From NCBI GenBank assembly GCA_000004985.1, contig GG738896.1: a stretch of 64,000 nucleotides of DNA. One strand, written 5' to 3'. Shown piece by piece: positions 6,747-32,000 of the stretch. Both the position numbers and the translations under genes were made by a program. Positions within the stretch are counted from its first letter, which is position 1, and each line of letters opens with the position of its first letter. The stretch comes from Naegleria gruberi. Its lineage: Eukaryota. The notes under the pieces are model-generated. The model was not told the origin of the DNA. It did not search any database and saw only the letters and a program-made list of their open reading frames with translations.

Positions 6747-8087
6747 ATGTTCAATAATATTGTATTAATATTAAGAATAATTAAAAAATATTTTAAATTG
6801 TATTCGGAATTGAAAAACAATGAAGGTTACCTCCCTCTCGATGATCAGGTACCACAACTCCTATTAGAAATTAAATTAGAGGGGTTCCATTTCCCCTCTC
6901 TATTTGTGTTGTTTTGCCAACAGGTAAAAACGATCAAAACAAATTACAGATATTATTATTTAAAAAAAATGTGTGAGTATTCCGATGATCGACTCGTAGA
7001 TATTATCAATCTTGAAATTAAATTACAAAAGGAATGGTATAGTGATACGATAGAGGGTGATATTCGTTTAGAAATTAAAGAAAATTGTAATCAAGTTATT
7101 CGTATTAAAGATATTACTCTCTTTTTGCAGGGATTAGAAAAATTAGAGTATCAAGTGGAGGGTCCGAACCGATCTTTGGCTTGGAAATCTGATGAAAAAA
7201 AGGTACTACAAAGTGAGGTACCGATCGCTGGAGATGGGAAATTAACAAAAGGTCCTCATGTTTATTCTTTTTCAGAAAGATTACCAACCGATATTCCTGG
7301 ATCATTCTTTGAGGAAACCACTTATCTGGGAAAACAGATCAAGGCTCAGATATCTTACTTTGCATCATGTGTTGTTGAACTAAGGGTGGGAAATGAAAAA
7401 GAGTCTCAACATGTTACAATTCACAAACAATTTGAAATTTTTGAAAAATTAGGTGATAGAATGGCTAACAATTTGTTTGCAAGCAGAAATAATCAATCAT
7501 GTGGATTATTGTGGAAAATATCATCGAGAAGAAATATTTACTGTCGAAGAGACAAATGCCAATTTTATTCAGAAGTATTGAACGAAGGCATCTCTTCTGT
7601 ATCATTTATTACTGTCAGATTGCTGCAGATTTTAAAGCTTAACATGGAGAAACAAAATACATCAGAGAATATTATGTTAGAGGTCTATAAAAAGACCTTT
7701 AATGGTATCCTGCCAAAATGTAAAGATTTGAGAAATATCACATTTGATTTACATCCAGATCTTGTTGATTATTTCCTCTATCCACAAACAACTTATGGAA
7801 GTCTTATCAGAGTAGAGTACATGCTCCAATTTTCACTAGATAATTTGATTGAGATCAATATTCCAATAGAGGTTTTATTCAAGCAAGACATTCCAGTAAG
7901 ACCTTTATCTAGAAACACAATATCATTGACTGATCATGAAAAGTCCAATAGAAGAAAATCAAAGAGCTACTACGGAGAGCTTGAAGATTATGAGGAATCT
8001 GTCGTGTTAAATGATCCAAAAGATCAAGATAATTATCACGAAGTAATTTCATTAGAGAAAAATACTGGCTGTTGTACTATTCAATAG
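6747..8087 (+). CDS. arrestin-domain-like protein (tentative)
   Basis: 446-aa ORF. The central region (GDGKLTKGPHVYSFSERLPTDIPGSFFEETTYLGKQIKAQISYFAS) resembles the arrestin N-domain signature. The true start may be the internal Met at about 6966. Confidence 0.35.
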   Translation: MFNNIVLILRIIKKYFKLYSELKNNEGYLPLDDQVPQLLLEIKLEGFHFPSLFVLFCQQVKTIKTNYRYYYLKKMCEYSDDRLVDIINLEIKLQKEWYSDTIEGDIRLEIKENCNQVIRIKDITLFLQGLEKLEYQVEGPNRSLAWKSDEKKVLQSEVPIAGDGKLTKGPHVYSFSERLPTDIPGSFFEETTYLGKQIKAQISYFASCVVELRVGNEKESQHVTIHKQFEIFEKLGDRMANNLFASRNNQSCGLLWKISSRRNIYCRRDKCQFYSEVLNEGISSVSFITVRLLQILKLNMEKQNTSENIMLEVYKKTFNGILPKCKDLRNITFDLHPDLVDYFLYPQTTYGSLIRVEYMLQFSLDNLIEINIPIEVLFKQDIPVRPLSRNTISLTDHEKSNRRKSKSYYGELEDYEESVVLNDPKDQDNYHEVISLEKNTGCCTIQ

Positions 8088-11987: not shown

Positions 11988-14111
11988 ATGGCCCAAGTTG
12001 AAACTTACAAATTCCAAGCCGAAATCAATCAATTGATGAGCTTGATTATTAATACATTCTACAGCAATAAGGAAGTCTTTTTGAGAGAGTTGATTTCCAA
12101 TGCTTCAGATGCTTTGGATAAGATTCGTTATATGAGTTTGACTGAACCTTCAGTTTTGGATACTGAAAAGGAATTGTGCATTCATTTAATTCCTGATAAG
12201 GTAAACAAGACATTGACAATTAGAGATACAGGTTGTGGTATGGCCAAGCACGATTTAATTAATTGCTTGGGAACTGTTGCAAGATCTGGAACTAAACAAT
12301 TTATGGAAATGCTTCAAGCTGGTGCTGATGTTTCCTTAATTGGTCAATTTGGTGTTGGTTTCTATTCTGCTTACCTTGTTGCTGATCGAGTTGTTGTCAC
12401 AACTAAACACAATGATGATGAACAATACATTTGGGAATCATCTGCTGGTGGCAGTTTTACAATTACTTTGGATGAAAGTGGTGAAAAATTGTCACGTGGA
12501 ACCAAGATTGTTCTTCACATGAAAGACGATCAATTAGAATATTTGGAAGAAAGAAAGTTGAAGGATTTGGTAAAGAAGCACTCTGAATTTATTGGTTATC
12601 CAATCTCTTTACAAGTTGAAAAGACTGAAGAGAAGGAAGTTGATGAAGATGACTCCATGTCAGATGATGAAAAGAAGGACGAAGACAAGAAGGAAGATGG
12701 TCCAAAGATTGAAGAAGTCAAGGAAGTAGATGACAAGAAAAAGAAGAAGGTTAAAGAAGTCAAGAAAGAGCTCGAATTGTTGAATAAGAACAAGCCATTG
12801 TGGACTCGTGATCCAAAGACTGTCACTAAGGAAGAATATTCCAGTTTCTACAAGGCATTGACAAATGATTGGGAAGAACATTTGGCTGTCAAGCACTTTT
12901 CAGTTGAAGGCAACTTTGAATTCAAGAGTTTGTTGTTCACACCCAAGAGAGCTCCATTCGATCTATTCGAACCAAAGAAGAAACTCAACAATATCAAACT
13001 CTATGTTAGAAAGGTCTTTATTATGGATAATTGTGAAGAGTTGATTCCAGAATATTTGAATTTTGTGAAGGGTATTGTTGACTCTGAAGATTTGCCATTG
13101 AATATTTCCCGTGAACACTTGCAACAAAACAAGATTATGAAAGTTATTAGAAAGAATTTAGTCAAGAAGTGTATTGAAATGTTCACTGAACTTGCTGAGA
13201 ATAAGGAAGATTTCAAGACTTTCTATGAAGCATTTGGAAAGAATTTGAAATTGGGTATTCATGAAGATTCTCAAAATAGACAAAAGTTGGCCGAGTTATT
13301 GAGATTCCACTCCTCTCAAACTAAAGGTGAAGATTGGACCAGCCTCAAGGAATATATTGAACGTATGAAGGAAGGTCAAGAATTTATCTATTACATTACT
13401 GGTGAAAGCAGAAAGGCAGTTGCTAGCTCACCATTCATTGAAAAGTGCACCAAGAAGGGAGTTGAAGTCTTGTACATGACTGATCCAATTGATGAATACA
13501 TGGTTCAACAATTGAAAGAATTCGAAGGCAAGAAATTAGTGTGTGTAACAAAGGAAGGATTGAAATTGCCAGAAACTGAAGAAGAAAAGAAGAAGAAGGA
13601 AGAATTGAAGGCCTCATTCGAAGCATTGTGCAAGTTGATGAAGGATATTTTGGGAGATAGAGTTGAAAAGGTTGTTGTTTCTGATAGACTTGGTGATTCT
13701 CCATGTTGTTTGGTTACTGGTGAATATGGTTGGAGTGCAAATATGGAAAGAATCATGAAAGCTCAAGCTTTGAAGGACAATTCTATGGCCTCCTACATGG
13801 TTTCAAAGAAAACAATGGAAATTAATCCAGAAAATTCTATTGTCAATGAATTGAGAAAGAAGGCTGAAGCTAATAAGGCTGACAAGACTGTCAGAGATTT
13901 GGTTTGGTTGTTATTCGAAACTGCCTTATTGACTTCTGGTTTCAGTATGGAAGAACCTCATACTTATGCTTCCAGAATTCACAGAATGATCAAACTTGGT
14001 TTGAGTATTGATGAAGAAGATCTTGCCTCTGAAAAGACTGAAACAACAAGCCAAGAAAATAAGGTTGAAGAAAGTCCAGCTGCTGAATCCTTAATGGAAG
14101 ATGTTGATTAA
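11988..14111 (+). CDS. HSP90: cytosolic heat-shock protein 90
   Basis: 707-aa intronless ORF. N-terminal ATPase signature ([22 protein letters not shown]), a charged K/E linker, and a C-terminal MEDVD. Confidence 0.95.
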
Positions 14112-14121
14112 AATAAATAAT

Positions 14122-16464
14122 TTATCTCTTTTCCTTTACAAAGAATCTCAATAAGAGACCAGCTAAAACAATAAAGAAAACAGCAAAGCTTGCAGTGAAA
14201 ATGATATCCGCATAGAATCTTTCGTGGTCCATTCCCAATTCTTTCAGGAAAAAGTCACCATCACCTGGGAAGCTTGGGAAACCTTTTGGATCAATAACGA
14301 TTGGGAATCCGTGCAATTCATTGATGAGAAGGGCTTCATAGGCATAACTAAAGTATGAAAAGTATTTAATCCATGAGAGGTAGACTGGAAGTGAATCAGT
14401 ATTCAACAAGAATCCAGCAAACAACATATTTCCAAGAATTAACAAAATTGAAATCAAGTTAGCAGAAGCAACACTATTAGCAATTGTACCAATACAAATA
14501 CAGAGAGCTCCACTTGCTAAATTGAATAAAATTAAAATGAAAATAAACCAAAAGAAGTGTGAAGTGATTTCTCTCAAACCAATCATCCACTAATAATATT
14601 TTAGATAATTATTTCTATTGTCAAATAATCAATATTGAAAAATACTTACATAAGCAATAGATCCCATAATAATTGGTGGAATGACACGGAGTGGAATTAA
14701 ATCAAAGAAAGTCTTTGAGAAAAAGTATGAAATTGAAAGATAGTATCCATTTGCTCTTTCTCTCACATAAATTGTACGTTCTGTAATAAATAATTCCAAG
14801 CTAGACATGGCAGCAAAGTTCAACAAAGCACACATGAAGAAAATACTACCCATTCTGTTTTGACAAGCTTGGATATTGTTACTTTGCTGGAAGTAAATGG
14901 CACCAAGTAAAAGACCCATGATAATAGCACTCAAATAGTGAGCTGGCATAAGGTAGAAATTTCTGTAAAAGTTACGGAATGATCTCTTAGATAAAATGTA
15001 AAGTTGCGTATAGAACGAGGTGGCATACTCTTGAACCTTCTTGGTGTAAATATTATCTTCTGTCTTTACCAAGAGATTTTGTGATTCTTGATTTTCAGAT
15101 CCATAACCAGATTGTTTGAAAATTGGTTGTTGGTAAGATAAAGATTGATTATTTTGATTAATAGAAGTTCCTTGAGTCTCATTTTCTGACATTTCTGACA
15201 TGACATCTAATAAAAAGTCAGCAGGATTGTATTGAGATGGACAGTCATGACCAAGTTTTGACAAATAATCCAATGATCCTTCAGCACTTCCACTATAGAA
15301 TATTTTACCATCCTTCATTAAGAGTAAATTATCAAATTGTTGGAAAATATTAGAACGAGGTTGATGGATAGAGAATACAATAGTTCTGTTATGTTTAGTG
15401 GCCAGGTCGCAAATAGTCTTGATGGTTGAGACTGCGTGATATGAATCCAATCCCTTAAAAAGTTTGTCATTCATTAATAAAAGTAAAATTACTAACACTT
15501 GTAGGTTCATCCAAGAAGAGAATTTGTGGTGCAATGACTAATTCACAAGCAATACTGACACGACGTTTTTCGCCTCCAGAAATACCTTAAAAAGTTTGTT
15601 ATTCATGAAATAAAAGTAAAATTACTTACCTCTTGTCATGGCATCACCAATCTTTCTATCACGAATATGTGAAATTCCAAGCTCTTCCATAACAGACTCA
15701 ACACGTCTCTTCTTTTCCGTATATGGGACAGTATCAGGTAAACGAAGCTCCGCACTAAACATGATTGATTCAAAAACTGTCAAGGTACCCATTAAATGAT
15801 CATCTGATTGAGATACATAACCAGCAACTCTCTTATATTGGTTATAGTCAATTGGTTTGTTATTAACCAATAATTCTCCAAAAACATCTCCAGATTTAGA
15901 TCTACCAGCAATAATATCCAATAATGATGTTTTACCAGCTCCAGAAGGACCCATAATAGCAGTAACAGTTCCCGGTTTAAAGGTGTGACTCAATCCATGA
16001 AGAAGTGTAATTCTATTCTTGCTCTTGAGATGGAGAGCCCTTTCTCTTTCCTCCTCCTTTTCTTCCTTTGCAATATCTTCCTCATTGACTCCACTAACTT
16101 CCTGGAGAGAATTGATTTTCTTAGCAGTAGTTCTGATAATATAGGTCAAGTTACGAATTTCCAACTTGGCTCCAAATTCATTATTTCCTGTCTTCATCAT
16201 ATCCTCATATTCATGTTTAACCTTTCTAGTTTGAAGTTTAGAATAAATAATACTGAAAATTAATACAATCATGATAGCAACAAAAATTACTGAACCAACA
16301 GCTCCAGCAACAATTTTAGGTAAATCATTTTGTTTTGGTGGTTGAGGTGCAGGAACGTATACATCAACACACTCAGCAGCATGATCACAAGTTGATTGAA
16401 TAACACCAGGGAAGTTTTCATGTTGAACTATTAGAAAAATATTAACAGGTAAATATTTTAACAT
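14122..16464 (-). CDS. ABCG (White-type) half-transporter core, NBD-TMD; at least 4 exons in this span
   Basis: Walker [15 protein letters not shown] signature [13 protein letters not shown] lies in the 15497..15585 exon. Walker B/D-loop FLDEPTSGLDS. C-terminal 6-TM ABCG-type domain. Introns: 15586..15629, 15454..15496 and about 14587..14646 (GTAAGT...TATTAG). Confidence 0.75.
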
Positions 16465-17372
16465 TGGAATTGAAACTTACTTGAACAAGACTTGGTTTCG
16501 TTATTACACTGTACATTTGCATAACCAGTCATGTGTTCTAATATATACAATACAAACTGGTTATAACATTTTGGAGAAATCATTGAACATGCACAGCCAG
16601 TAGTATATCCACATTTGTATAATACTTCTCCTTTTTCTGGAATTGATAAGACACAATCGTGGAATGTACAATAAAAAGTTTCAGCAAGAGAAGTATCAGA
16701 CTTGTCAAATGATCTGAAATAACAATTTCCACCAGCTGTCTTATTTTCCATTCCATTACAGTCAATTGTGAAATAATTTCCCATGAGAGGTATCATTCTT
16801 TCCGAAGTAACTTCACAACTATAAACCTTTTCTTTCTGTGGAATGTATGATTTATCACAAAAAGCAGCCGAATTGTTCAATCGTTGTTGACAAACGTAAT
16901 CATTACTACACATTCTACAATCCAATCCTTCCCATCCAGGTTGACAAGAACAAACTGGAGATTTATCGTCATCACTACTCGTACTAAATAAATTTCTTCT
17001 TGTGTTCGAATCATCATAAACTTTATCTGTCAATGATTTTCCATTTACACAGTCAATCAAAGAACAATTTCTAATTCCCATGGATAAATCATTCTTGAAA
17101 CCAGGCAAACAAACACATGTTGTATTATCTGTCGAACAATATCCAGCATTCATACATCTCGCATCACTATCACAAATTGTCCAATCGTATTGTTGTTGTC
17201 CAACAATTAGACTACCACTACTCATCATTATGATCACTAGGAAAATAAATAATACTAAACCACTACCACCGAATTTGAATGAATTATTGTTTGGGTTCTT
17301 CCGAATCCTATGTAGACCATGAGAGATCCCACCATTGGAAGAAGATAATGGGTTGGATAGCGATATCTGCAT
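16458..17372 (-). CDS. signal peptide plus EGF-like Cys-rich ectodomain; probable 5' exon of the ABCG gene
   Basis: 304-aa ORF with an N-terminal hydrophobic signal (LVLFIFLVIIMMSSGSLIVG) and EGF-like C-x-C patterns (CVCLPGF, CSCQPGWEGLDCRMC). A GTAAGT donor after TCAA at about 16470 and a TAATAG acceptor at about 16420 join in phase to ...[35 protein letters not shown]. Confidence 0.5.
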   Translation of the reverse strand: MQISLSNPLSSSNGGISHGLHRIRKNPNNNSFKFGGSGLVLFIFLVIIMMSSGSLIVGQQQYDWTICDSDARCMNAGYCSTDNTTCVCLPGFKNDLSMGIRNCSLIDCVNGKSLTDKVYDDSNTRRNLFSTSSDDDKSPVCSCQPGWEGLDCRMCSNDYVCQQRLNNSAAFCDKSYIPQKEKVYSCEVTSERMIPLMGNYFTIDCNGMENKTAGGNCYFRSFDKSDTSLAETFYCTFHDCVLSIPEKGEVLYKCGYTTGCACSMISPKCYNQFVLYILEHMTGYANVQCNNETKSCSSKFQFQC

Positions 17373-17656: not shown

Positions 17657-19057
17657 TTAAAAATTGAAAGAAACATCCGAATAGGATCCATTCATAAGAT
17701 TCTTAAGGAAGTTTTCAACTCTAACATTTGGAATTCTGATAAAGAATGCAGAATCAGAGAATGGTGAAGAACATACTTTCCATCCTTGAGTTGTTAAATA
17801 TTTAAAGTCATCAAAGCATTCCATTCTTTGAATAACTCTGAAGGACTCATCATCTCTGTCGAACCAATTCTCTTCATCTTCACTATCAGCATACTTGCTA
17901 TGCTCAATATGACCTAGGGCACCATAGCTATTAGCTCCAGCTCCATAAACATCTCCATTGTGAGTTGTAAAGTAAGCAACATCTGAACCACATTCTATGG
18001 ATGTAATTAAAACATTCTTCGAGTCGAAATAGGTAATCTTAATTGGTCTACAACTGGTCATATTTTCAGAATCGTCTAAATGTGGAGTTGTTGAAAAATT
18101 GAAATATCCTGTTACGAATACTTCACCTGATGCATTTAAAAACATTGTGAAATTTTCTCCACATTTTACAGAGACAATTTCTTGATCTGTGAATGGTTCT
18201 ATAAGAACAGGTCCAGCATGTAGTTCAGTTGAACCCAATCCTAGTTGACCAAGTAAATTATTACCACATCCATACAATGATCCATCTGTCTTCTTAAAAA
18301 TAGTATGTGAAGATCCGCAATATATATCCTCAATATTATTCATAGTTGGAAGCATTAGTGGCACAGTTATCACATCTTTGGCATTATAGGTTCCTAGTTT
18401 ACCATAATTATTTAATCCTGAAGCAAATACATAATTTGCAGAAGTAATAAAGAATGTACACGATTCACCACAAACAATTTTTCTAATAACTTCACCATTA
18501 TTAATAGTGATCCTTGAAAGTTGATCGTACATTCTCTCCTTAGGTAGACCCAACTCAAAACATTTGTTTGACCCGAGTCCATAAATTTTACCCTTATTTG
18601 TTAATACAAATAAATGCTCACTTCCAAGAGTTATCTTATCTATAAAATCCTCTGAATCTTTCCAAACAAATGGTAACTTGGTTGGAGCAGTTGTTTCAGG
18701 AAATAATTCATCTGGTTGTTGTTTCTTCTTTTTCTTTTTCAAATTTTGAGTTGATCCACAAACAAACAAGTGTTTTCTACTACTTGTCAAGAAAACTGAA
18801 TATCCACGTGTATCATTACTAACACAATAAACGTGTTCTACCTTTTCATAACCCTCTTCTAATCCATTCATTCTCAGTGTTGGATTTAAATATTTTGGAT
18901 AGTATATTGATTGTGCATTTTGATTGCTAAACCCTAATTGATGACAATGATTTCTTCCCATAGAAAGAACCAATGTTTTGGAAAATTCTTTTTTTCTTTG
19001 TTCCGATCGTGTGGTTGCTGTATTACTGGCAGAAGCAGCAGAATGTGTTTGAGACAT
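17657..19057 (-). CDS. RCC1-repeat (regulator of chromosome condensation-like) beta-propeller protein
   Basis: 466-aa ORF with at least 5 RCC1-type blades (GRNHCHQLGF, GSNKCFELGL, GLNNYGKLGT, GNNLLGQLGLG, GANSYGALGH). No signal peptide. Confidence 0.75.
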   Translation of the reverse strand: MSQTHSAASASNTATTRSEQRKKEFSKTLVLSMGRNHCHQLGFSNQNAQSIYYPKYLNPTLRMNGLEEGYEKVEHVYCVSNDTRGYSVFLTSSRKHLFVCGSTQNLKKKKKKQQPDELFPETTAPTKLPFVWKDSEDFIDKITLGSEHLFVLTNKGKIYGLGSNKCFELGLPKERMYDQLSRITINNGEVIRKIVCGESCTFFITSANYVFASGLNNYGKLGTYNAKDVITVPLMLPTMNNIEDIYCGSSHTIFKKTDGSLYGCGNNLLGQLGLGSTELHAGPVLIEPFTDQEIVSVKCGENFTMFLNASGEVFVTGYFNFSTTPHLDDSENMTSCRPIKITYFDSKNVLITSIECGSDVAYFTTHNGDVYGAGANSYGALGHIEHSKYADSEDEENWFDRDDESFRVIQRMECFDDFKYLTTQGWKVCSSPFSDSAFFIRIPNVRVENFLKNLMNGSYSDVSFNF

Positions 19058-20014: not shown

Positions 20015-23000
20015 AAATCATTTAAAAATCCAGTTTCATATCCAACACCTGGATGGCAATTATTATATTTCCAAGGATTTAATTGCCCAAAGAATGGAGT
20101 TCCTGAAGGAATTAGTGATCGTAGTTATGGACAATTGCGTGTTGGATATAATCACATTATTGCTTTTCAAGTGAAAAGTAATAATGGAACACAAAAATTA
20201 AATATTGTAGGAAAAGGTGATAATACAGTTGGTCAATTAGCTATTGATAGATATATTTCTGGTGGAGTCAGATATTTTGCCAATATTACATTTGAAATTA
20301 ACTGGGGAGAGATGGTTAGATTAGTACAAATTGAAGATTTAATAACATCAAGAACTATTGCAAATAATCAAGATGTTGCTAAACTTCAAACTTATGATGC
20401 TTGGGATTCTAATCTTTATTTTGATAATATTAAGGGACACTATTTCCCTGATAATATTATTATTCAAGATATTAATACTTGTTATTTAAATACTTTTATA
20501 ATTTTAAAGAATCAAGAAATTTATGGAACTGGTTCAAATATTTACAAAAGTTTAAGTTTATCAAACGAAAATAGCAAAAGTAACTCTCCTATAAGATTAA
20601 CAATTTTGGAAAATTTTTTAAAATCACAAAGTGATTGGATTGATCAACTTTATTGTGGTTATTCATCTGTTTTTATTAAAACAAAAGCTAATAGAATTAT
20701 TGTATTTGGTAGAAATGATGTAAATCAATTAGGTCTTGGATCTGAATTTAGAGCAAATTCAATTACTCCAACAATTCATCCATTTTTAACATATTATTCA
20801 CAAAATATTGCAAATCTTGATACTATTTCATTTGGTTTAAATTTTACTTTAATTTCATTCAAAGATGGTTCAGTTTATTGTGCTGGTTTAAATAATCACC
20901 ATCAATGTGGTCTTGGTATTAATGAATATACAATTTCAAATTTTGTTCAAGTACCAATACCAGAAAAGATTACAAAAATATCAACAACAGCATATGCATC
21001 ATTTTTTGGTATTGAAACTGGTGAAATATTATCTTCAGGATGGAATTTAGGTTTTATTTTAGGACAAAATATTACTGATGAAAATTATGTTTCATCTACT
21101 CCAGTTAAAATTGAAAATTTAATTTCTCCAAATGATTATCAACTTTCAAAAGGTTTTCAATTATTTCATATAACTTATCAAAATGCAACATCAACTATGG
21201 CATGGGGATCAAATCAATTTTATAGTTCTGGTATACTTTATCAGGGTACTGGAACAGCTGCTTATCCAACTATTTTAGCATTGGGCAATGTGGAACGTGC
21301 TGTTTTAGAATCTATTGCAAATCCATCTGAATGTATTTTAGTTGGTGGTCATGCTGCTGCTAATGGTTGTTCCAATAGTTTATTACAAAGAATTAATTTA
21401 AAAACAGGATTTAATACTACATTTGGTGAATTTCGTTCATATTGCAGTAATTTTGGTACTTTTAATTATTCTACAGAAGTTTGTTCATGTGATGAAAAAC
21501 ATTATGGATATTCATGTCATTTAATCAAACCAGAATTTTTAGGAAATTGTAACCAATCAAGTTTAGAAAATTTTGCTATTGCTCCAAATACATGTTATTG
21601 TGGTGGAGAAGGTTTTTATGGAACATCTTGTGAAAATAAGGCACCTCCTAGATCTGTTTACAGTTTTACTAGATCTTTAAATATTCAAAAATTTACTCTA
21701 AAAAATAAGATGTTTGATTTTGGTTATTTAATAAGTGGTCAATCACATACATTTTTAAAATCTCAATTGAATAATAATAGAGTTTATGTATTTGGTAATG
21801 GATTGAATACAAATGATAAATATGGAATTGGTTTGGCTAGTAATAATATGATAAGTGATACTATTCAAATTTCAACATTATTTGAAAGATTATCAAAGAA
21901 ATTAACTTCTTCAATAAGAAATATTTATCCAATGAAAATTCAATCAGTTGCATTATTTAGTAATGGAGATATTTATAAGACTTTAAATAATTCAGATTTT
22001 GAAATTATTGCAAGTAATGTTAAATATTTAACATGTTCAGATATTACATGTTTTTTTATTACTAATGATAAGAATGTTTATGGTATTTTTGATAATCAAT
22101 ATAATCAACTTGGTTTAACTGATTTTGCAACAAGACAAAAAGTTTATGAATCTCAACCTGTTTTAGTATCACTTTTAAATAATAATTATCATAAGGAGAT
22201 TGTTAATATTTATCCTTCAAATTATTTTACATTATTTGTTAATCAATTTGGTAATTTATTTGGTATTGGTAAAAATACAGAATATCAATTAGGTATTGGA
22301 CATAATTTAAATATTGATAAGTTTATTATTCCATTAATAATTGAAAAACCTGTTTCACATGTTATTGTTACAGAATCTATTACATATTTTAAAGAATTAA
22401 ATTCTGTTTGGAAAACAATGGGTAAAGATATTTTAAATATTGCTCCAATTTCTCAATATTTAATTTATCCAACAGTAATAACATCTTTACAAGAACAAGA
22501 AAATATTTATAGAGCTAAAGGTGATATTATTATTACTCAAACAACAACTAAATTTAGACAATTAACACTTAATCAAGACCTTTCATATGGTCAAGAAAAA
22601 ATTATTGATGTTAATATTATGGGAGATGATATTATTTTAGTTACAATTCCAAGTAATTTTAATTCTATACTTTGTTATAATGGTTATTTAGATATTACTG
22701 GTACTTCATGCATTTGTGATAAAGGTTTTAGAGGAATTGATTGTAATTCTTATTTATGTGATAGAGTAACATGTAATTCATGTATTGGACCAAATATATG
22801 TTCTAAAAATCAATCTACAACAACAAATGAATTGAGATTATTCTCAAAAAATTATGGAATGATACAATCAAAGTTTAATGTTAAACATCATACTATTGGT
22901 GATAATTTTGCTATATTTATAGATTATGATGGTGAAACTAAATTTATTGGTGATAATTTTTATGGTGAATTAGGAATGGGTGGTTATTCTTCAATTAGTA

Positions 23001-26000
23001 TTAGTACCTCAAATTTACAACTTTTAACAAATAATATTTTACTTTTACCAATTTATTTAGCTAATGAAAATGTTAAATCAATTACATCTGGCAATAATTT
23101 TATTATTGTTTTAACAGAATCAGGTAATTTATTCTCTGTTGGTGATAATAGATTTGGTCAATTAGGTCAAAATGATACTATTAGTAGATATTTTTTAACT
23201 AAAATAGAAAGTACAATAACTTTTACAAGTGTAACTTGTAATTCTTTTCATTGTATTGCCTTAGGATCAAACAACAAATATTATGGTTGGGGAGATAACA
23301 CATTTGGTCAATTATGTTTAGATTCAACAACTAAAAAGGTTGTTTACACACCTTCACAAATTATATTTGATGTTATTATAGATGTTGTATCTACTTCAAT
23401 TATGTCAATTGGTCAAAACTCTTCAATATTTTATAGTAATAGTGGAGATGTGATTGCTTGTGGTAAAATAACAGTACCATCAAATTATGCTGATAAATCA
23501 GTAAGACAAAGAGTTTTACCAAATTTCAATATTGATTTACAAGCTATGGAACAAATACCAAGAAAATTCTATACCGATTTATGTTTAAAAAATTCTAATG
23601 AAGAATATTACTGTTTAGGTGAAAACAAATTTGGTACTCTAGGTTTTGGTCATGCTTTACCTCTTTATGGAATTTTTTTATCAAAACATTTTGGTGTTGA
23701 TGGAGGATTATTTTTCCATACTCACACTAATAAGATTAATTTCTATTATTCTAAAAACAAAATTTTAAATTATTTTGGTAATGGTGATTTATTGAATGAT
23801 ATCAACAATATGAATCCAGCAAGACAAACAAATGTTTTTCAATCAATTGGTAAATTTAGTTTCATAACATCAAATGAGAAATTTGGTTATATAATTACAA
23901 ATACTAGCAATTGTTTTAATAGAGGATATTTTTCTAATGGAATTTGTACTTGTAATAATATTAAATATTTAGGTGATGAATGTCAAACAAATACTAACAT
24001 TCCACAAGGTACAACTTCTCAATTCCAAATAATTGATACTTTAGGTAATAATTTTAATTTTACTAATAAGTTTGGAAGTATGTCAAAAATTGAAACATTT
24101 GGTAATTTACCATTTGGTTTTAATAATACTAGAAATAATTTAAGAGTTGTTAGTACCTTTAATTTGGCATTAAATCAATCCACTTCTCAACTTGCACTCA
24201 TTTTTGCTATTGATAATTATGCTAATTTAAACGTTGACATTCAATTTCCAAATAGTGGGAAAATTAGTAAACTTCAAACAAGATTGGAGGAAGGATCTGA
24301 TTACATTTATCATACAATTACTACTGATAATATAGATACTAATGCAATTATTCAAGTAACATATACAACAAATAATTCAGTAATTTTAGATAGTGATATG
24401 AAGAACCAATTTCTTAAAGTTTATACAAGAAATGAAAAAAATAATATTATTCCTATTGGATTGAAATCTAGCTCTGAATTATTATCTGAAGTACTTGCAA
24501 GGTTGAATTTCCTTTTTTCTATTAATGGTCCACATACTGCAGAAATTTCCTCTATTGAAGAATTTCCATGTGATCTAGATGGTAATAATAATGTGATAGG
24601 TCTCAGATTAGATGGAAATTTTTTCAATTATACATTTTATCCAATTCTAAAAGATGAATCTTTCCGTACTTTAAAGAACTTTTACAGCTCAAAAATTTCA
24701 TCAATTAGATATCCTATTCATGAAACATTTAATTTTGCAGAAAGTGATATTAGTCTCATTAATTTATCTAATAATAATAATCTTGAACAATCTGCAGGTT
24801 ATTATGATTTATCACCAGTTAAAAGAACAAATATTTTAATTAATGTTTCAAAATCAAAGATTTGTGATATTCCATTTGCTGATTTATTTATTAATCCTTC
24901 TAAATATAATTTTACAAATACTAATATGTATTGTATGAAACCAATTTTTGATAATTCTTGGTGTAAACCATTAAGTTTTAGAGAAAGTACTTTATACTTG
25001 ACTCAATTTTTTGTTTCTACAAAATTAAGTATTCCACTTGCACTTTGTGACTCATGTTCTATTTTAAATTGTTTTGATTTTTTAACTCAAAATACTTCTA
25101 GATTATCCTATTATTTTGTTTACCCAGATAATAATAAGATTATTTCTAATAATTTTAATATATTTGAAACAAGAAAGGATGTAAATGTTGATTTATTATT
25201 CAATGAATTTAATGAAAATAATTTCCTTAATTTTGATTATATTAATATGGGTATTATTTATAAATATGATTCTCCTATTGGAATACAAGAATTAAAAGGA
25301 ACTATCAAATTACAATATTTGAAATATTTACAAAGTTTCAATTTTACACCTATTGTACTTGCTAGAAATAGTGATAATATTGTTACAATTAAAAGTGAAA
25401 ATATGAAAGATTTCATAAAATATAATCAAGTTTATTGTAAAACAAGAATTAGTGAAGAAATAATTACTTTGGATGACAATGATAAATCAACTTCCTATTG
25501 TAATATTAGAACTGGTATTGAATATAATCAAAATATAACAGTTCAATTAATGGCTTACCCTATATCAGGAAATAATCCTTTTAAAATTGGAGAATTTAAT
25601 GTTTATGTTTTAAATATAACACTTATTCCAAATATTATCAATAAGTATTCTACAAAATATCCACAATTAATATTTATTAATTCTGATTTTACAACAGGAA
25701 GCTTTTTATCAAATTCTAAATTAGAATTTATGGAAAATGGTGAAACTGTTTATAAGATTGATCAACTAAAAATTAGTTATTTCAATACTTTATCCATTAC
25801 TGCAGATATTTATAAACAAAATCTTGACATGTATTTAGATAATGTAAATTTAGGATATTTTACTTCTCAAATTGTTTATAAACAAGTCAATTTAGAAAAA
25901 ATTATTCCATCCTTAAGTTTTAATACTGAAGAGATGCCTACAATTTATTTAGATAGAGAAATTTATTCAAATATTCATTCAAATATTCAGTATAGATGTT

Positions 26001-29000
26001 TAGATACTTTAACAAATACTTCATATTCTGCTCAATACTTAAATTCTAGAATAATATGTAATATTAATAATTTACCTACAAATAATGTAAAATTATTAGA
26101 TTTAATTGTTCAAATAAGAATTTATTCATTTAATGATAATGAATGGTTTACATATAGTAGTAATAGTGTTAAGTTTTATCATTTAATTTCTAATATGAAT
26201 ATTTCTTTAGCAGAAGGATCACAAACCTTTTCAAAATGTCATTATTTATCTTCTAGTACAACAGGTTTCACTCCAAGAATTAAATTAAATGAAATTGTTT
26301 TACCTGAAAGTGAAACTTATAGATTTTCAATATGCCATTATAATAGGTTAAATGAAATTGTTACCTATAGATCTAATTATTATAGAGATAATTTATTTGA
26401 AGCATCAGGATTTACTTTATATCTTAAAAGTGGTTATTCTAATATTTATTTATGTGCTGACTCAATGATTGTATCAAAACCAGTTGTAGTTTTTGTTATT
26501 AATCAAACAGATTATGATTCCAAACCAATTTTTGGTTTTATTGGTTCTGATATTTGGTCTGGTTATATTTTCCATCATCAACCACTTTATTCTGATTCTC
26601 TCTTCAATTTAACCTATTCTTGTGCCTTATTTGGTGATGTTCAAAATTATACTGTTTATTCAACAGATTTAATTACAAACAAAATTGATAATTATTATGT
26701 AACAAGATGTATTTTCACTGGTTTAAATAATATTATCAAACAAGAGGCAGGTTTTTATTTTTCATTACTTGCAAAGAGAGGATCAGAAACTGTTCAATTA
26801 CCAGCTACTTTTATTAATTTCATTTATGGACCAAAACCTACAAATTATTCTACTCCATTTATTTCTCATATTCCATATTCTGGTTATATTTCAACAACTT
26901 TATTAACACAAGATCAGGATAGAGATTTATTTGTTTCTAAAAATCAAAATGGATTTTTTAGATTAACTCTCCCAATTGATTGTTTGTTATTTAAAGTTGG
27001 TGGTACTTATCCTATTGCATCTGCACCACTTGATACAACATCATCAACTCTAAAATGTGATTTAACTAAATATACAGTTACAAGCAGTGAACCATTCGAA
27101 ATATCATTAGGTTCACTTGTTACAGAATATTCTTATTTTGTAGAATTTACATCAAGAACTGTACATTTCACATATTTGAATAAGATAGAATTTAACTTTG
27201 AAGGCTATCCAATTTTAGAAACTGGAAAATCTATTCTTCTAAATTATTATACTAACAAACTTCCTCAATACAAACAAACCCAATTGAATGTTACTATGTC
27301 TGCATTAGGACAATACCCCATTATCAAGTCATGTGATTTTGAACTTACAGGATCTTGTATAGTAGATTATAATTTAACAATTCCAATTACTCCAGTTTTA
27401 CAAACTTACATACTTCAATTTTCATTTATTATTAATGAATTTTTATTGAAACAAACATTGAACATTGAAAATACATTGTTCAATAACAGATTTAATGTAA
27501 TGTACTATTCACCATTCCTCTTTGATTTTAAAACTGATTCAAGCATTTACAATTTCAAGTTACAAATTGATAATGGATTAAATCCTGATTTCAATTTTGA
27601 TCTTGATACTGATGGTATTAGAAGAAGCATTTTTTATGGTTTGAATAATGATAGTATAACAGAAGTTACTTGCTCTAGAATTAGTAATTATAGTACTAGT
27701 ATAGCATCTAATTTAGAAACAAGAATTGTATCAACATTTAAAGGAATTACATTTTCTGTTGATAAGAAACCATCAACTATTTACCTTAGAGAACTTTACA
27801 CTACACCAAATATTGTCTCTCAATCAATTCAAAAAACTATTAATATTACTCTTACTACAGATATTGCTATTCAAAAACCTCTAAAGAAGTATTATATTTC
27901 TTTATTAGATAATAAGTATGAATGTAGTATTGAATCAACATCTTTGATTTGTCCTGTTTTAATTACATATATTGGTAATCCTTTCTACAAGGAAGTTCTT
28001 AAAATTTTAGATGGTGATAATGTTGTAACAAGGATTGGTTTACCATTTATCCTATTCAAACCAATTTCTATTCGTGAAGTTAAACCAACACTTCTACTTC
28101 AAGATAATAACTCTGTTAATACTACAGTTTTAATGGAGCAAACAGTTTTTGAAGATTTAGGAACAGAATTTATATTTTCTTGTTCCATCGAAGATGGTAA
28201 CTTCTCAGCTATTGTTGGTGATTCTAACTCTGTTAGATGTAATTTCAATAACTTGAATACTGGAAGAAAGAGTGTAAAAATTTATCTTTCCTCTAATAAT
28301 CAATACAGATCCATCAAGGAATTATTATTAACTGATATTAATCCAGCAAAAGATTTTGAAGTTATTAAGAATCCAACCATAGCTCTTGATAATTCTATTG
28401 AGCAAAAAACTTTATTCTATACTTCTGAAACCTTTTCATTAACAACTCTTAATATTCTAGTTACAAATACTGAATTCACTTTGAATAATATCTTGTATAA
28501 CATTTCTACTGAAATTGGTTTTTATGGAAAAAACAGCTTTGTTGAAAGTACTACTTATTTGGGAAAATTTGATACATCATACAAATTCCAAGTATCATTT
28601 TATGCTTCAAATAACTATGAAGGATTTGTTCCTCTGAGATTAACAAAAGTTTTATCAGGAACTACTAAAGAATCTAGAGCTCTTACTTCTGATGATTACA
28701 TTTTAACAAAGATATCTGATTTGGTTCTAACTTGTGTAACAAAGGTAACTTTATCAAAGAGTGTTCCAGCATTTGGTGTTGAATCTAATTTACCAAGATT
28801 AGTTCAATTATATTCAAACTTTAACTTTTTAAAATTTATTCCTGATTCTAATCTTTTACAAGATGGAAAGGTTAATTTTAAGTGTGTTTATGAATATTTA
28901 CCAAAATCTAATAAGGCAATTAGTAGCACTACTAGAATTTATAATAACGAAGCATTCGAATGTAATATGACAACACCAGATGTTGGTCAAGTTCAAATTG

Positions 29001-32000
29001 ATCTTTATGTTGAAAAAGATGGACATTCATTATCTCTTAATATTAATTCATGGAATTATATTATTTATGATGGTTTATTCTTACAACCTTCTTATGGTTT
29101 GAGAACTATTGAAAATTCAAGACTGGTAAATCCGTTCAAGATTCAAAAATACTCTGATTTGTCTGGTATTAACTTGAATCAATTTACAAAGTTTAATGGT
29201 AAAATTACTGAACCTGATGTTTCCTTTACTTGTGAAAAGGAATTAAGTTCAGATGGTATCTATCCATTATTGAACTGTACTATTCCTGTTTTACCATCTA
29301 CAAATATTATGTCTTTCAAACAGTATGAATTAAGACTTTACACAAATCCAAGTATGCAACTAATTTCAAATTTCTCACTAGGTTGGCTTCCAACAAGTTC
29401 TCTCTATATTAGTAATATTAATCCAAAAATTATTCAAAAATCTACTAGTAAGACTGATATGAAAACAATTTATGTAGATATCTCGGGAGATAGTAATGTT
29501 ATTTCAAGAACCTTACCTGAAGGTAACTTTGCTATTTATACAAGAAGTGCAGGTGTTGCCCTTTTACAATCTGCTAGACCACCTTATGTTGCTCAACCTG
29601 CATCTATTGCTATTCAAACTTCTAATTTTGAAGAAACTGTAACATTACAATATGTGAACTATAACTTACTTACACCTGTTATTGATATTCCAAAACCAGA
29701 CCTTGTCGATTTTATGAAACTCACTGTGAATGATGTTGAATTGAATAGTATTCAATATTCATCCGACAGTATTAAAGGTTCTAAGGCAAGTGGTGCAACT
29801 ATCTTTTTCACTGTAAGCAAGAATACTGCCACACTATTCATGTTAAATAATGGTGGTTATAATGGTTCTATCAAATGTGTTCAAGATCCAATCACTAGTA
29901 ATAGTGCAACATTTGTGTCTGAATCAACTGATACACTCAAGTTCAAATGCGTTTTAGCAAAGACAAGCTCAATTACAAATTCCTTTATTCTTTCTAAAGT
30001 TGAAATTTACTATAATAATCCAATGGCAGAGAATGGAAATATGAAGGTTTCATCTAGTGCTTTAGATTTTATTTGGTTACCTTCTACTTTACCAATAGAA
30101 CAACCTGTACCATTTGCATTTATCTCCAGAGTTGGTTCTTTTGATATTTCACTTTCAGATAAGAAGGTATTTATTTCCTCTGATAATTTTGTTTGTTATT
30201 TGGCTGATTCTACAAGTACCAATGTAGTGAAAATCAAAGCCATTTATAATCCATCAGGAACTCTCACATGTCCATTCAGTTTTAGCTATTCTATATCAAC
30301 AGTATTTAAAATTTCTATTTACTTTAGTAATGGTCCAAGTGATGTTCTTTTAACAACAACAAGAGATGTAACCTTTATCAATGCACCTTTGGAAATTTCA
30401 TACATTGACCCATTCATTACTTATCACTTACCAGCACTTACTGGTAGTACAACAGATATCAATTACAAGGTCAGCAAATTGAGTTTTATTCCTCAAGGTT
30501 TATCTTGTACTTTTAGAGAAGTTACATCAACAATACCAAGTATTGGTCAAGTTAGAAAAATAACACAAGCTCAAATTCAAGACGGTTTATTTGTTTGTCC
30601 TTTCTTGATTGATCAAACATTCTCATCTTATAATTTACTTACCAAATTAGTGATAGATTTAGGAAGTAATCTTTTAGACATTTCTAGCAATGAGCTTGAA
30701 TTGATTCTTTACAAAAAGAAGCTGACATGGAATATCAACTCATATTTGACAGCATCAAATTTGAATACTAGATATGAACTACGTAATTATGAAATTCCAC
30801 ATTCTTCAAGTTATAGTCTTCAACAATCTGTTGTTGCTACTCCTTATTTAAGATCTCAAAAAATACAAAACTTGAAAACAACAACATTAGATTGTATTGG
30901 AGCTGATCCAGCTAGTTGTACATTTGTTGGTATTGAACCAATGGTTAACAAAATACCTTCATACATGACCACTGCTATTGAATTTATCAATGTTGAAAAT
31001 CAAAGAAAATCTTACATTATTGCTAATGACTTGACATTGTTCCTTAAAAAGTCTTCATTCAATGTTTCTCATATTTCTCCATATATTGCAGACTACAGAC
31101 AAAGTCATGCATCTAATCAAAATTTCCTCTTTACCAGTGCTAGTTTAAATGCTGAGGACTTTGATATTACATGTCAATTCGATAACAAAAAGACAAATAT
31201 GACAAGAAATCAATTTTGTGTTGTTAAACCACCAACTTTACCAAATGGATACCCAAAAACTGGTATTCAAAATGTCACTTTAACTTGGAATGGTATTGAT
31301 TTATATTCTAGAAGTTATCCAATAGATTTCATAGAAGCCTATCAAGTTAATAATTTGATAACTTTTTATTCATATAGATCTAATATTACATTGATTGATA
31401 ATCCTTATGTTCCTCTACCTTTCAGTGGAGATTTTTCTGGCTATACTTTTTCAATTGGACTTTTTGAAAAGAATAGATTAATAGGTGAAGCAACTTGTAA
31501 ACAACTATTTGCTAATAATGCCCAATTAGAATGTGTAAAGGGACCTTTTAGTTATTCAACATCTTATCCAGTTACTTCTATTGTGAAATTATTGATTAAC
31601 GCTCAATCTGCTTTCCAGATGAAAGGAGAAATTGTGTTATATTCTGCTCCTACTATTCAAAGTCTCAGTACTAATTATTTCAGAATTAACCAAATTTATA
31701 CTATGGAAGTCTATGGATCTGTATTCTATCAAAAGGATACGCCAACCCTTGAAATATATTCCAATACTACTTTCAATTCATATCCTACCATGGTTGTTGA
31801 TTCCAATACTATTCGCATTCAAAACATTGGCTTCAATGACCTACAAGAAACTCTAAGAAAATCCAGATTGAAATTTAGTTCAGGTGCCTATTTAGATCTA
31901 CCAGATATTTCTATTTATAAAGGAGTGAAAGAAGATTTCTCGTTGCAATCCATCAATTCAGAAGCATATGATAATGGTGTTATTACAGCAACCACAACTA

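What the first reader, a model, noticed from the sequence alone, without database searches (positions are those of the whole stretch)
14122..17372. ABCG half-transporter apparently fused to an N-terminal secreted EGF-like cysteine-rich ectodomain
Upstream of the ABCG NBD-TMD core lies an ORF encoding a signal peptide and about 280 aa of EGF-like Cys-rich sequence. It ends exactly at a GTAAGT donor. That donor splices in phase, through a 53-nt GT..AG intron, into ...[20 protein letters not shown]-(TM helix [20 protein letters not shown])-cytosolic NBD. The resulting topology is coherent: signal peptide, ectodomain, TM0, cytoplasmic NBD, then a 6-TM ABCG TMD. Canonical ABCG proteins start with a cytosolic NBD. 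An extracellular Cys-rich sensor or adhesion domain on an ABC exporter would be unusual.
Basis: partly seen in the sequence, partly recalled or inferred. Interest (0 to 1): 0.7.

Follow-up and report, generated by a model that had tools for sequence, protein, structure and literature searches.

The report
Naegleria Adp1-type ABCG transporter gene
The two ORFs really are one spliced Naegleria gruberi gene for an ABC half-transporter with a cysteine-rich outer domain, but this design is the long-known yeast Adp1 type, so it is an ordinary new member and not a new kind of protein.

Summary
On the minus strand, 17372..14122 holds a 5-exon gene of 1016 aa. The 53-nt GTAAGT..AG intron (16480..16428) joins the Cys-rich ORF in phase to TM0, the NBD and a 6-TM ABCG domain. 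Comparative evidence for the fusion is strong. N. lovaniensis has an unalignable 58-nt intron at the same codon and phase. A metagenomic relative reads through the junction as one ORF with no intron. N. fowleri has a 1031-aa orthologue. A profile built without any Naegleria sequence matches the spliced N-terminus as one domain (aa 41-359, E 2e-65).

The claim that the design is unusual does not hold. The ectodomain is homologous to that of fungal Adp1-type ABCGs (profile-profile probability 99.8%, E 4.6e-28). That family is described in the literature as "TMH1-NBD-TMH6" with N-terminal EGF repeats, is present in most fungi, and was first found in yeast in 1991. Exon 1 alone finds 41 relatives, and all ten long ones scanned carry an ABCG core (Acrasis, Clastostelium, metagenomes).

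Function is poorly known even in yeast: vacuolar/ER location, and glutathione export when overexpressed. Verdict: a new member of a known kind, of low interest. A side observation: introns 2 and 3 are near-identical and specific to N. gruberi.

The parts
14122..17372 (-). Whole CDS of the Adp1-type ABCG gene: 5 exons, 1016 aa, ATG at 17372..17370, stop codon at 14124..14122
   Evidence: Assembled: 3051 nt, divisible by 3, no internal stop. 72% identical over 92% of its length to the N. lovaniensis model P0006.
16481..17372 (-). Exon 1 (892 nt, ends in phase 1): short cytosolic N-terminus, signal peptide or anchor, and most of the ectodomain (aa 1-297 plus 1 nt)
   Evidence: On its own it finds 41 relatives at E<=1e-3 among 1.84 billion representatives.
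17202..17258 (-). N-terminal hydrophobic segment LVLFIFLVIIMMSSGSLIV (aa 39-57): signal peptide or uncleaved signal anchor
   Evidence: Kyte-Doolittle 19-residue window mean 2.76. N. fowleri and L003 orthologues have an equivalent segment closer to their N-terminus.
16482..17201 (-). Ectodomain, exon-1 part (aa 58-297): two EGF-like modules including CSCQPGWEGLDCRMC, then a disulfide-rich beta domain; 24 Cys and 5 N-x-S/T sequons
   Evidence: AF2 model has mean pLDDT 70.5, with the beta-rich part at pLDDT about 80. Homologous to fungal Adp1-type ectodomains.
16428..16480 (-). Intron 1: 53 nt, GTAAGT...TAG, phase 1. It contains the stop codon that ends the first ORF and the ATG (16464) that heads the second ORF
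   Evidence: An orthologous intron sits at the same codon and phase in N. lovaniensis (58 nt, GTATGT..TAG, unalignable sequence). Absent in relative L003.
16315..16427 (-). Ectodomain, exon-2 membrane-proximal part (aa 298-335): [38 protein letters not shown], with invariant C311 and C317
   Evidence: Conserved from the first residue after the acceptor site in all orthologues. Profiles span the junction.
16243..16314 (-). TM0 (aa 336-359, [24 protein letters not shown]), followed by the K/R-rich stretch [10 protein letters not shown]
   Evidence: Hydropathy 2.98, with positive residues on the NBD side. Present at the same place in all aligned homologues.
15630..16427 (-). Exon 2 (798 nt): end of the ectodomain, TM0, linker, and the NBD through Walker A and the Q-loop
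   Evidence: Walker A GPSGAGKT at aa 457.
15497..16002 (-). Nucleotide-binding domain (Pfam ABC_tran, aa 440-593; interrupted by intron 2), with Walker A, Q-loop, signature SGGEKRR and Walker B ILFLDEP; the H-loop SIHQP lies just downstream at aa 621
   Evidence: PF00005, E 8.7e-31. Motifs located.
15586..15629 (-). Intron 2 (44 nt, GTAAGT..AAG)
   Evidence: Restores ...MTRG|ISGGEKRR. Absent in N. lovaniensis and L003.
15497..15585 (-). Exon 3 (89 nt): ABC signature through Walker B
15454..15496 (-). Intron 3 (43 nt, GTTAGT..AAG), near-identical to intron 2
   Evidence: Absent in N. lovaniensis and L003.
14650..15453 (-). Exon 4 (804 nt): end of the NBD, linker, first TMD helices
14590..14649 (-). 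Intron 4 (60 nt, GTAAGT..TAG), between SIAY and WMIGLRE; shared with N. lovaniensis and L003
14122..14589 (-). Exon 5 (468 nt including the stop): last TMD helices and C-terminus
14149..15009 (-). ABCG-type transmembrane domain (Pfam ABC2_membrane aa 742-953, last helix aa 990-1008; interrupted by intron 4)
   Evidence: PF01061, E 2.7e-43. Hydropathy peaks.

Best explanation
The region is one protein-coding gene of Naegleria gruberi on the minus strand, with 5 exons and a 1016-aa product. It encodes an Adp1-type member of the ABCG family.

Shown here: the mature mRNA model joins exon 1 to exon 2 across a 53-nt phase-1 intron. The product has, in order: an N-terminal signal peptide or anchor (aa 39-57); an ectodomain of about 280 aa and 26 cysteines (EGF-like modules followed by a disulfide-rich beta domain); a single helix TM0 (aa 336-359); a complete ABC ATPase domain; and a 6-helix ABCG-type membrane domain.

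Inferred from hydropathy, the positive-inside rule, sequons, and the mapped N-glycan on yeast Adp1: the Cys-rich domain faces the lumen or cell exterior, and the NBD faces the cytosol.

Inferred from what is established for ABCG half-transporters generally: two such chains dimerise, and ATP binding and hydrolysis at the NBD dimer drive export of a small or amphipathic substrate from the cytosolic side or inner leaflet to the luminal or extracellular side. The two ectodomains, each tethered by TM0, would sit over the exit of the translocation pathway. There they could act as an acceptor or lid for the substrate, or as a binding, sorting or quality-control module.

The substrate is unknown. The only functional lead in the family is glutathione export by overexpressed yeast Adp1 (Gxa1).
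For: Gene structure:
- The in-phase GTAAGT..TAG intron, and three more introns of the same style, give an uninterrupted 3051-nt CDS.
- N. lovaniensis has an intron at the same codon and phase. It has a different length (58 nt) and unalignable sequence, while the flanking coding sequence is conserved.
- In metagenomic relative L003 the signal peptide, ectodomain, TM0, NBD and TMD form one continuous ORF.
- The N. fowleri orthologue P0286 is 1031 aa with the same layout.
- Invariant cysteines lie on both sides of the junction.

Architecture:
- ABC_tran E 8.7e-31 and ABC2_membrane E 2.7e-43.
- Hydropathy, K/R after TM0, 26 Cys, 5 sequons and all NBD motifs.

Family:
- Exon 1 alone retrieves 41 proteins. 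All 10 long ones scanned have ABC_tran plus ABC2_membrane downstream, including Acrasis kona and a transcript-derived Clastostelium protein.
- hhalign of Naegleria-type against fungal N-termini gives probability 99.8%, E 4.6e-28, over 216 columns.
- The fungal set carries the names 'ATP-dependent permease ADP1' and 'ABC transporter (Adp1)'. It also includes the cluster of RO3G_02429, which Kovalchuk & Driessen list as ABC-G group VII.
- Literature descriptions of Adp1 architecture: PMC2848647, PMC6647914, PMC9426558.
- Yeast Adp1 Asn-165 is N-glycosylated (PMC3433913).
- Glutathione export by Adp1p/Gxa1p (PMC4302092).
Against: - There is no transcript evidence for N. gruberi itself. The splice is inferred from sequence and comparison.
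- S. cerevisiae Adp1p (P25371) was never compared directly, because its sequence was not obtainable and the AlphaFold-DB fold library was offline. The link runs through other fungal family members.
- The core phylogeny only weakly supports a single clade of ectodomain-bearing ABCGs (64/200 bootstraps).
- Pfam EGF models do not reach threshold on this protein.
- The N-terminal hydrophobic segment starts 38 residues in, so cleavage cannot be decided.
Confidence: 0.88

Rival explanations
1. These are two separate genes: a small secreted Cys-rich protein ending at the TAA at 16460..16458, and an independent ABCG half-transporter translated from the Met at 16464.
For: Purely mechanical ORF calling gives exactly this split. 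Prokaryote-style callers on metagenomic contigs of the same organism did the same (P0001 and the 254-aa ORF in L001/L002).
Against: - The residues encoded between Met16464 and the acceptor site ([13 protein letters not shown]) have no counterpart in any orthologue. Conservation begins exactly at the acceptor.
- The intron is missing in L003, which gives one ORF there.
- The intron position and phase are conserved in N. lovaniensis.
- One conserved domain spans the junction.
- All long homologues of exon 1 carry an ABCG core.
Confidence: 0.02
2. The gene is as modelled, but intron 1 is sometimes retained. Retention would give a truncated, soluble, secreted ectodomain (stop six codons into the intron: ...[11 protein letters not shown]) alongside the full-length transporter.
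For: The retained intron has an in-frame stop after 6 codons, so retention would produce a clean secreted product. The intron sits near the ectodomain/TM0 boundary and is kept in two Naegleria species.
Against: - There is no expression data.
- Relative L003 has no intron at this site.
- The truncated product would lack the invariant C311 and C317.
- A premature stop would normally trigger decay of the transcript.
Confidence: 0.07
3. The fusion is a lineage-specific invention of Naegleria, an independent capture of an EGF-like adhesion or sensor domain by an ABCG gene. This is what the first reader suspected.
For: - The first word-indexed search with the N-terminus found nothing outside the locus.
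- Pfam does not recognise the domain above threshold.
- The plant ABCG24-type N-terminal extension is unrelated, so N-terminal extensions have arisen more than once in ABCGs.
Against: - An exhaustive HMMER search with exon 1 finds the same domain on ABCG cores in Acrasis, Clastostelium and many metagenomic eukaryotes.
- It is homologous to the pan-fungal Adp1 ectodomain over its full length.
Confidence: 0.02
4. The locus is a decaying pseudogene or an assembly artefact.
For: No deposited N. gruberi protein model for it was retrieved.
Against: - All five exons are open, and all ATPase motifs are intact.
- It is 98% identical at protein level to an independent metagenomic contig of the same species.
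- It is 72% identical to the orthologue across its full length.
- The word-indexed search is demonstrably lossy, so non-retrieval means little.
Confidence: 0.01

Closest known systems
Saccharomyces cerevisiae Adp1p (YCR011C, P25371; also called Gxa1) and the fungal Adp1 clade (ABC-G group VII of Kovalchuk & Driessen 2010; clade V of Winski et al. 2022)
   Same: - Same order of parts: signal sequence, Cys-rich EGF-containing luminal domain, one TM helix, one NBD, then a 6-TM ABCG domain, in about 1000-1100 aa.
- The ectodomain is homologous over 216 profile columns, including the C-x-C-x2-G-W-x-G-x2-C-x2-C module and the membrane-proximal C-x5-C.
- The core falls on the same side of the ABCG tree in the point estimate.
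   Different: - Only about 25% identity in the ectodomain.
- The fungal proteins have an extra N-terminal C-P-P-C-F-N-C module that Naegleria lacks, and Naegleria has its own low-complexity insert at aa 110-138.
- The organism is a heterolobosean, not a fungus.
- Yeast Adp1 itself was not compared directly.
- Core-clade support is weak.
N. lovaniensis C9374_011775 (XP_044543064) and N. fowleri FDP41_001725 (XP_044564095), both annotated as hypothetical proteins
   Same: They are orthologues: 72% identity over 92% of the length, the same domain order, and shared introns 1 and 4.
   Different: - They lack N. gruberi introns 2 and 3.
- N. lovaniensis has an intron in Walker A instead.
- The N. 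lovaniensis model has a doubtful truncated 5' end.
Canonical ABCG half-transporters (Drosophila White/Brown/Scarlet; human ABCG1, ABCG2, ABCG5/8; plant WBC type)
   Same: The NBD-then-TMD 'reverse' core with ABC2_membrane, about 30-35% identity. The dimeric ATP-driven export mechanism is presumed to be the same.
   Different: Those proteins begin with the cytosolic NBD. They have no signal sequence, no ectodomain and no TM0.
Plant ABCG24/ABCG28-type half-transporters of about 1100 aa with a long Cys-rich N-terminal extension
   Same: The general idea is the same: signal peptide, Cys-rich N-terminal region, a TM helix, then the ABCG core (P0081 and P0086 sequences).
   Different: The N-terminal domain is not homologous (hhalign probability 2%; no HMM hit). 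The cores never group with the Adp1 type (0/200 bootstraps).

Membership tests
Adp1-type ABCG (fungal ABC-G group VII / clade V) | A single NBD followed by one 6-helix ABC2-type membrane domain (reverse ABCG topology) | tested here: met
   PF00005 at aa 440-593 (E 8.7e-31) and PF01061 at aa 742-953 (E 2.7e-43). Walker A, Q-loop, signature, Walker B and H-loop all present.
Adp1-type ABCG (fungal ABC-G group VII / clade V) | One extra transmembrane helix N-terminal to the NBD (TMH1-NBD-TMH6) | tested here: met
   Hydrophobic segment at aa 336-359 (KD 2.98), followed by a K/R-rich stretch and then the NBD. It aligns with the equivalent helix of the homologues. This is a prediction only, not an experiment.
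Adp1-type ABCG (fungal ABC-G group VII / clade V) | A large N-terminal soluble Cys-rich domain with EGF repeats, homologous to that of family members | tested here: met
   - hhalign against a profile of 18 fungal family members: probability 99.8%, E 4.6e-28, 216 columns.
- The fungal set is tied to the family by 'ADP1' names and by RO3G_02429, a group VII member.
Adp1-type ABCG (fungal ABC-G group VII / clade V) | Direct sequence or structure similarity to S. cerevisiae Adp1p itself | not tested
   The P25371 sequence is cut off in the supplement, and the AlphaFold-DB fold library was unavailable.
Adp1-type ABCG (fungal ABC-G group VII / clade V) | The NBD-TMD core groups phylogenetically with Adp1 cores, apart from other ABCGs | tested here: inconclusive
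   NJ tree of 40 cores. One split separates all ectodomain-bearing cores from the rest, but with only 64/200 bootstrap support. Grouping with the ABCG24 type gets 0/200 and with the YOL075C type 1/200.
Adp1-type ABCG (fungal ABC-G group VII / clade V) | The N-terminal domain is luminal or extracellular and N-glycosylated | not testable with these tools
   There are 5 N-x-S/T sequons and 26 Cys in the domain. Yeast Adp1 Asn-165 is glycosylated (PMC3433913).
Canonical ABCG half-transporter (White/WBC type) | The protein starts with the cytosolic NBD, with no preceding TM helix or ectodomain | tested here: not met
   About 440 residues precede the NBD, including a signal segment, a 26-Cys domain and TM0.
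Plant ABCG24/28-type long-N-terminus ABCG | An N-terminal extension homologous to that of ABCG24-like proteins | tested here: not met
   hhalign probability 2%. The plant N-terminal HMM hits no Naegleria-type sequence, and the reverse is also true.
EGF domain (Pfam PF00008 and relatives) | A score above the Pfam gathering threshold | tested here: not met
   EGF scores 13.8 bits against 21.5, and EGF_Teneurin 18.3 against 24.3. Some family members do pass, or carry PF25024: P0126, P0015 and P0217-219. The modules are therefore EGF-like by pattern and homology, not by Pfam score.

The most novel reading that the evidence does not exclude
The Adp1-type design is not a fungal speciality. It is an ancient eukaryotic invention shared by Discoba (Naegleria, Acrasis), Amoebozoa (Clastostelium), Fungi and possibly green algae. 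On this reading its conserved disulfide-rich beta domain is a luminal acceptor or lid that takes the substrate from the ABCG exit. That would be loosely analogous to the periplasmic beta-jellyroll of LptF/G or the extracellular domains of ABCA1. Naegleria would then offer a non-fungal system for solving the 30-year-old question of what Adp1 does.
Probability: 0.2. Interest if true: 0.45.

Novelty: new member of a known kind. Interest (0 to 1): 0.2.

Why it matters
For genome annotation, it shows that this N. gruberi locus is one 1016-aa gene, not two ORFs, and gives exact exon coordinates. ORF-based callers split it, and I could not retrieve a deposited N. gruberi model.

For biology, the gain is modest. 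It places a clear Adp1-type transporter in Heterolobosea, including the pathogen N. fowleri. Together with the Acrasis and Clastostelium hits, this shows that the Adp1 ectodomain-ABCG fusion extends well beyond fungi. The family's function is still essentially unknown, so a wider phylogenetic base, and the sets of 16 to 20 invariant ectodomain columns (nearly all cysteines) recovered in the alignments, could help in designing experiments.

It does not reveal a new type of ABC transporter.

Tried and rejected
- word-indexed homology search with the N-terminal 378 aa found only the locus's own ORF fragment. This was misleading, because the index is lossy: it missed P0006 and P0007, which were found later.
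- a phage DNA search with the neighbouring HSP90 was pointless and returned nothing.
I used exon 1 alone instead.
- phmmer of the ectodomain against PDB sequences gave no hit at E<=10.
- the AlphaFold-DB fold library was unavailable, so the intended direct structural link to yeast Adp1 (P25371) could not be made.
- the Biopython bootstrap timed out, and I redid it with numpy.
- I tried to read the deposited N. gruberi annotation around the locus, but that assembly is not in the gene-position index. Whether the gene is annotated there remains unknown.
- literature searches for EGF-bearing ABCGs in protists or Naegleria returned nothing relevant.
- Homology to the plant ABCG24-type N-terminus was considered and rejected.
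- The Caulerpa protein P0008 matches the ectodomain profiles only marginally (E 3e-4 to 0.03), so I do not count green algae as established.
Full report
**Source and setting.** The window is from Naegleria gruberi. The HSP90 gene at 11988..14111 (+) is identical to XP_002672583/D2VTC7, and the RCC1-repeat gene at 17657..19057 (-) is identical to XP_002672653/D2VTC9. The window is 31.8% G+C. The finding lies between these two genes, on the minus strand.

**Checking the observation.** Mechanical ORF listing gives four consecutive minus-strand ORFs: 17372..16458, 16464..15622, 15534..14629 and 14586..14122. Reading the reverse complement shows four short GT..AG intervals that link them:
- intron 1: 16480..16428, 53 nt, GTAAGT...TAG
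- intron 2: 15629..15586, 44 nt
- intron 3: 15496..15454, 43 nt
- intron 4: 14649..14590, 60 nt

Removing them gives a 3051-nt CDS with no internal stop and a 1016-aa product. At intron 1 the exon ends after the first base of a codon (…TGT TCA A|GTAAGT), and the acceptor gives |TT CAA CAT GAA. The 'Met at 16464' and the stop that closes the first ORF both lie inside the intron.

**Is the splice real?** There are no transcript data, so I used comparison.
1. The N. lovaniensis orthologue (P0006, 980 aa, 72% identity over 92% of the joined protein) maps to its genome in two frames, separated by a gap at the homologous residue. The DNA there reads …TGT GTT G|GTATGT…(58 nt)…TAG|TG AAA CAT GAA…. That is the same codon and the same phase, with a different length and an unalignable intron sequence, while the flanking coding sequence is conserved. 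This is how an orthologous intron behaves.
2. A metagenomic Naegleria-like contig (L003) has no intron there at all. One ORF runs from a signal peptide (…MTLFLSITLVLLFNNFSFVNG) through the ectodomain, TM0 and NBD into the TMD, stopping only at the shared intron 4.
3. N. fowleri has a 1031-aa orthologue with the same layout (P0286).
4. In an alignment of six diverse homologues, the invariant cysteines lie on both sides of the junction: C289 and C296 in exon 1, C311 and C317 in exon 2.
5. A profile HMM built from homologues excluding every Naegleria sequence matches the spliced N. gruberi N-terminus as a single domain, aa 41-359, at E 2.2e-65 (Z set to 1e6).
6. The peptide that the second ORF would encode upstream of the acceptor ([13 protein letters not shown]) has no counterpart in any orthologue.

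The two-gene alternative is effectively excluded.

**Anatomy of the product.** Pfam finds ABC_tran at aa 440-593 (E 8.7e-31), and ABC2_membrane (aa 742-953, E 2.7e-43) plus ABC2_membrane_7, which is the ABCG signature. Walker A (GPSGAGKT, aa 457), the Q-loop, the signature (SGGEKRR), Walker B (ILFLDEP) and the H-loop (SIHQP) are all intact. Hydropathy shows a strong N-terminal segment (aa 39-57), a second one at aa 336-359 (TM0) followed by [10 protein letters not shown], and the TMD helices. Between the first two segments lie about 280 residues with 26 cysteines and 5 N-x-S/T sequons.

The positive-inside rule, the even cysteine count and the sequons all fit an exoplasmic Cys-rich domain and a cytosolic NBD. 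Whether the first hydrophobic segment is cleaved cannot be decided, because it starts 38 residues from the N-terminus. Pfam EGF models score only below threshold on this protein. The modules are EGF-like by pattern (C-x-C-x2-G-W-x-G-x2-C-x2-C) and by homology to members in which EGF models do score.

**What family is it?** An exhaustive HMMER search with exon 1 alone, against 1.84 billion cluster representatives, found 41 proteins at E<=1e-3. About half of them are 800-1200 aa long with the match at their N-terminus. All ten long ones that I scanned carry ABC_tran and ABC2_membrane downstream. Those with names are an Acrasis kona 'ATP-binding cassette, subfamily G protein' and a transcript-derived Clastostelium recurvatum protein; the rest are metagenomic. 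So this domain is found attached to an ABCG core in every long homologue I scanned.

The full-length search also recovered a fungal protein (Dissophora, P0015, 1022 aa) with the same N-terminal motif. Searching with P0015 shows it belongs to a pan-fungal family of proteins about 1000-1100 aa long, covered at 97-100%, ranging from chytrid-grade lineages (Sorochytrium, Paraphysoderma) and Mucoromycota to Pezizomycotina. Members of that family are named 'putative ATP-dependent permease ADP1' and 'ABC transporter (Adp1)'. The cluster of one of them (P0250) contains RO3G_02429, which Kovalchuk & Driessen list as ABC-G group VII, their Adp1 group.

By contrast, the long Cys-rich N-terminus of plant ABCG24-type proteins is unrelated (probability 2%). 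The green-alga protein P0008 matches only marginally.

A neighbour-joining tree of 40 NBD-TMD cores puts all ectodomain-bearing proteins on one side of a single split. Bootstrap support is only 64/200, and groupings with the ABCG24 type or the YOL075C type get 0-1/200. The core phylogeny is therefore compatible with membership but does not prove it.

[quoted passage not shown] They say its function 'has remained enigmatic', and that relatives occur in most fungi, with up to six in a chytrid. Wasi et al. (PMC6647914) give the topology as TMH1-NBD-TMH6 with N-terminal EGF repeats. Winski et al. [quoted passage not shown]

A glycoproteomic study mapped an N-glycan on Adp1 Asn-165 (PMC3433913), which places the N-terminal domain in the secretory lumen. 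A table in PMC8211738 gives vacuolar membranes and ER as the location. A review cites Kiriyama et al. for Adp1p/Gxa1p as a glutathione-export ABC protein when overexpressed (PMC4302092).

**How it most likely works.** Shown: the gene structure, the domain order and the family. Inferred from hydropathy, the positive-inside rule, sequons and the yeast glycosite: an N-out, C-in orientation of TM0. Inferred from established knowledge of ABCG half-transporters (ABCG2, ABCG5/8, ABCG1): the protein works as a dimer, and ATP-driven closure of the NBDs pushes a substrate from the cytosolic side or inner leaflet to the exoplasmic side.

On this picture the two ectodomains, each anchored by TM0 next to the TMD, would lie above the exit. 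They could accept or gate the substrate, or mediate folding control, sorting or partner binding. The substrate is unknown. Glutathione or a conjugate is the only lead, and it comes from overexpression in yeast. I give the identity 'Adp1-type ABCG encoded by one spliced gene' about 0.9. Any specific role for the ectodomain rates well below 0.5.

**Novelty and verdict.** This is a new (N. gruberi) member of a known family. Its N. fowleri and N. lovaniensis orthologues are already in public databases as hypothetical proteins. I could not retrieve a deposited N. gruberi model. However, the word-indexed search is lossy, and the assembly is not in the gene-position index, so I cannot say the gene is unannotated. 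The mildly interesting points are that the Adp1 design clearly extends beyond fungi to Heterolobosea and Amoebozoa, and that the family's function remains open. Interest is low, at about 0.2.

Noticed in passing
window 15586..15629 and 15454..15496 (minus strand): Introns 2 (44 nt) and 3 (43 nt) of this gene are almost identical to each other, with 3 mismatches and 1 gap. They flank an 89-nt exon and occur nowhere else in the 64-kb window. They are absent at the orthologous sites in N. lovaniensis (L004) and in relative L003. This looks like a recent, N. gruberi-specific duplicative intron gain, possibly an introner-like element.
   Followed up: partly
L004 about 7300..7400 (N. lovaniensis) and L003 3125..3165: Intron positions turn over quickly among close relatives. 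N. lovaniensis has an intron inside the Walker A motif (GPSGAGK|SSLLD) that N. gruberi lacks. L003 has an extra intron after LINELH. Only introns 1 and 4 are shared by N. gruberi and N. lovaniensis, and only intron 4 by all three.
   Followed up: partly
window 14109..14124: The HSP90 gene (+) and the ABCG gene (-) converge, with only 10 nt between their stop codons (TAA at 14109..14111; TAA on the minus strand at 14124..14122). Their 3' UTRs must therefore overlap.
   Followed up: no
window 20135..36013 (+): A single uninterrupted ORF of 5292 aa with RCC1-like repeats, EGF-like Cys-rich stretches and a C-terminal multi-pass membrane region. A 5071-aa counterpart (RCC1 and Ephrin_rec_like hits) lies near the ABCG orthologue in N. 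lovaniensis, which suggests partial synteny.
   Followed up: no
L001 2700..4300 and L002 (metagenome ERR1078381): Contigs 98-100% identical to this N. gruberi locus occur in an environmental metagenome. Prokaryote-style gene calling there split the gene at intron 1 into 254-aa and 280-aa 'proteins' (P0001). This shows how eukaryotic genes get fragmented in metagenome protein catalogues.
   Followed up: partly
Supplement of PMC2848647 (SPPG_00865, group VII) and P0081/P0086: A Spizellomyces protein that Kovalchuk & Driessen place in 'group VII' has an N-terminus of the plant ABCG24 kind (…CDPGYYCP…) and not the Adp1 kind. In my tests the ABCG24-type N-terminus is unrelated to the Adp1 ectodomain. 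The published group may therefore mix two different N-terminal extensions.
   Followed up: no
P0117 (N. fowleri, 1047 aa): Naegleria also has a second ABCG with a long N-terminal extension of about 330 aa. It is non-Cys-rich and unrelated, and it ends in a TM helix.
   Followed up: no
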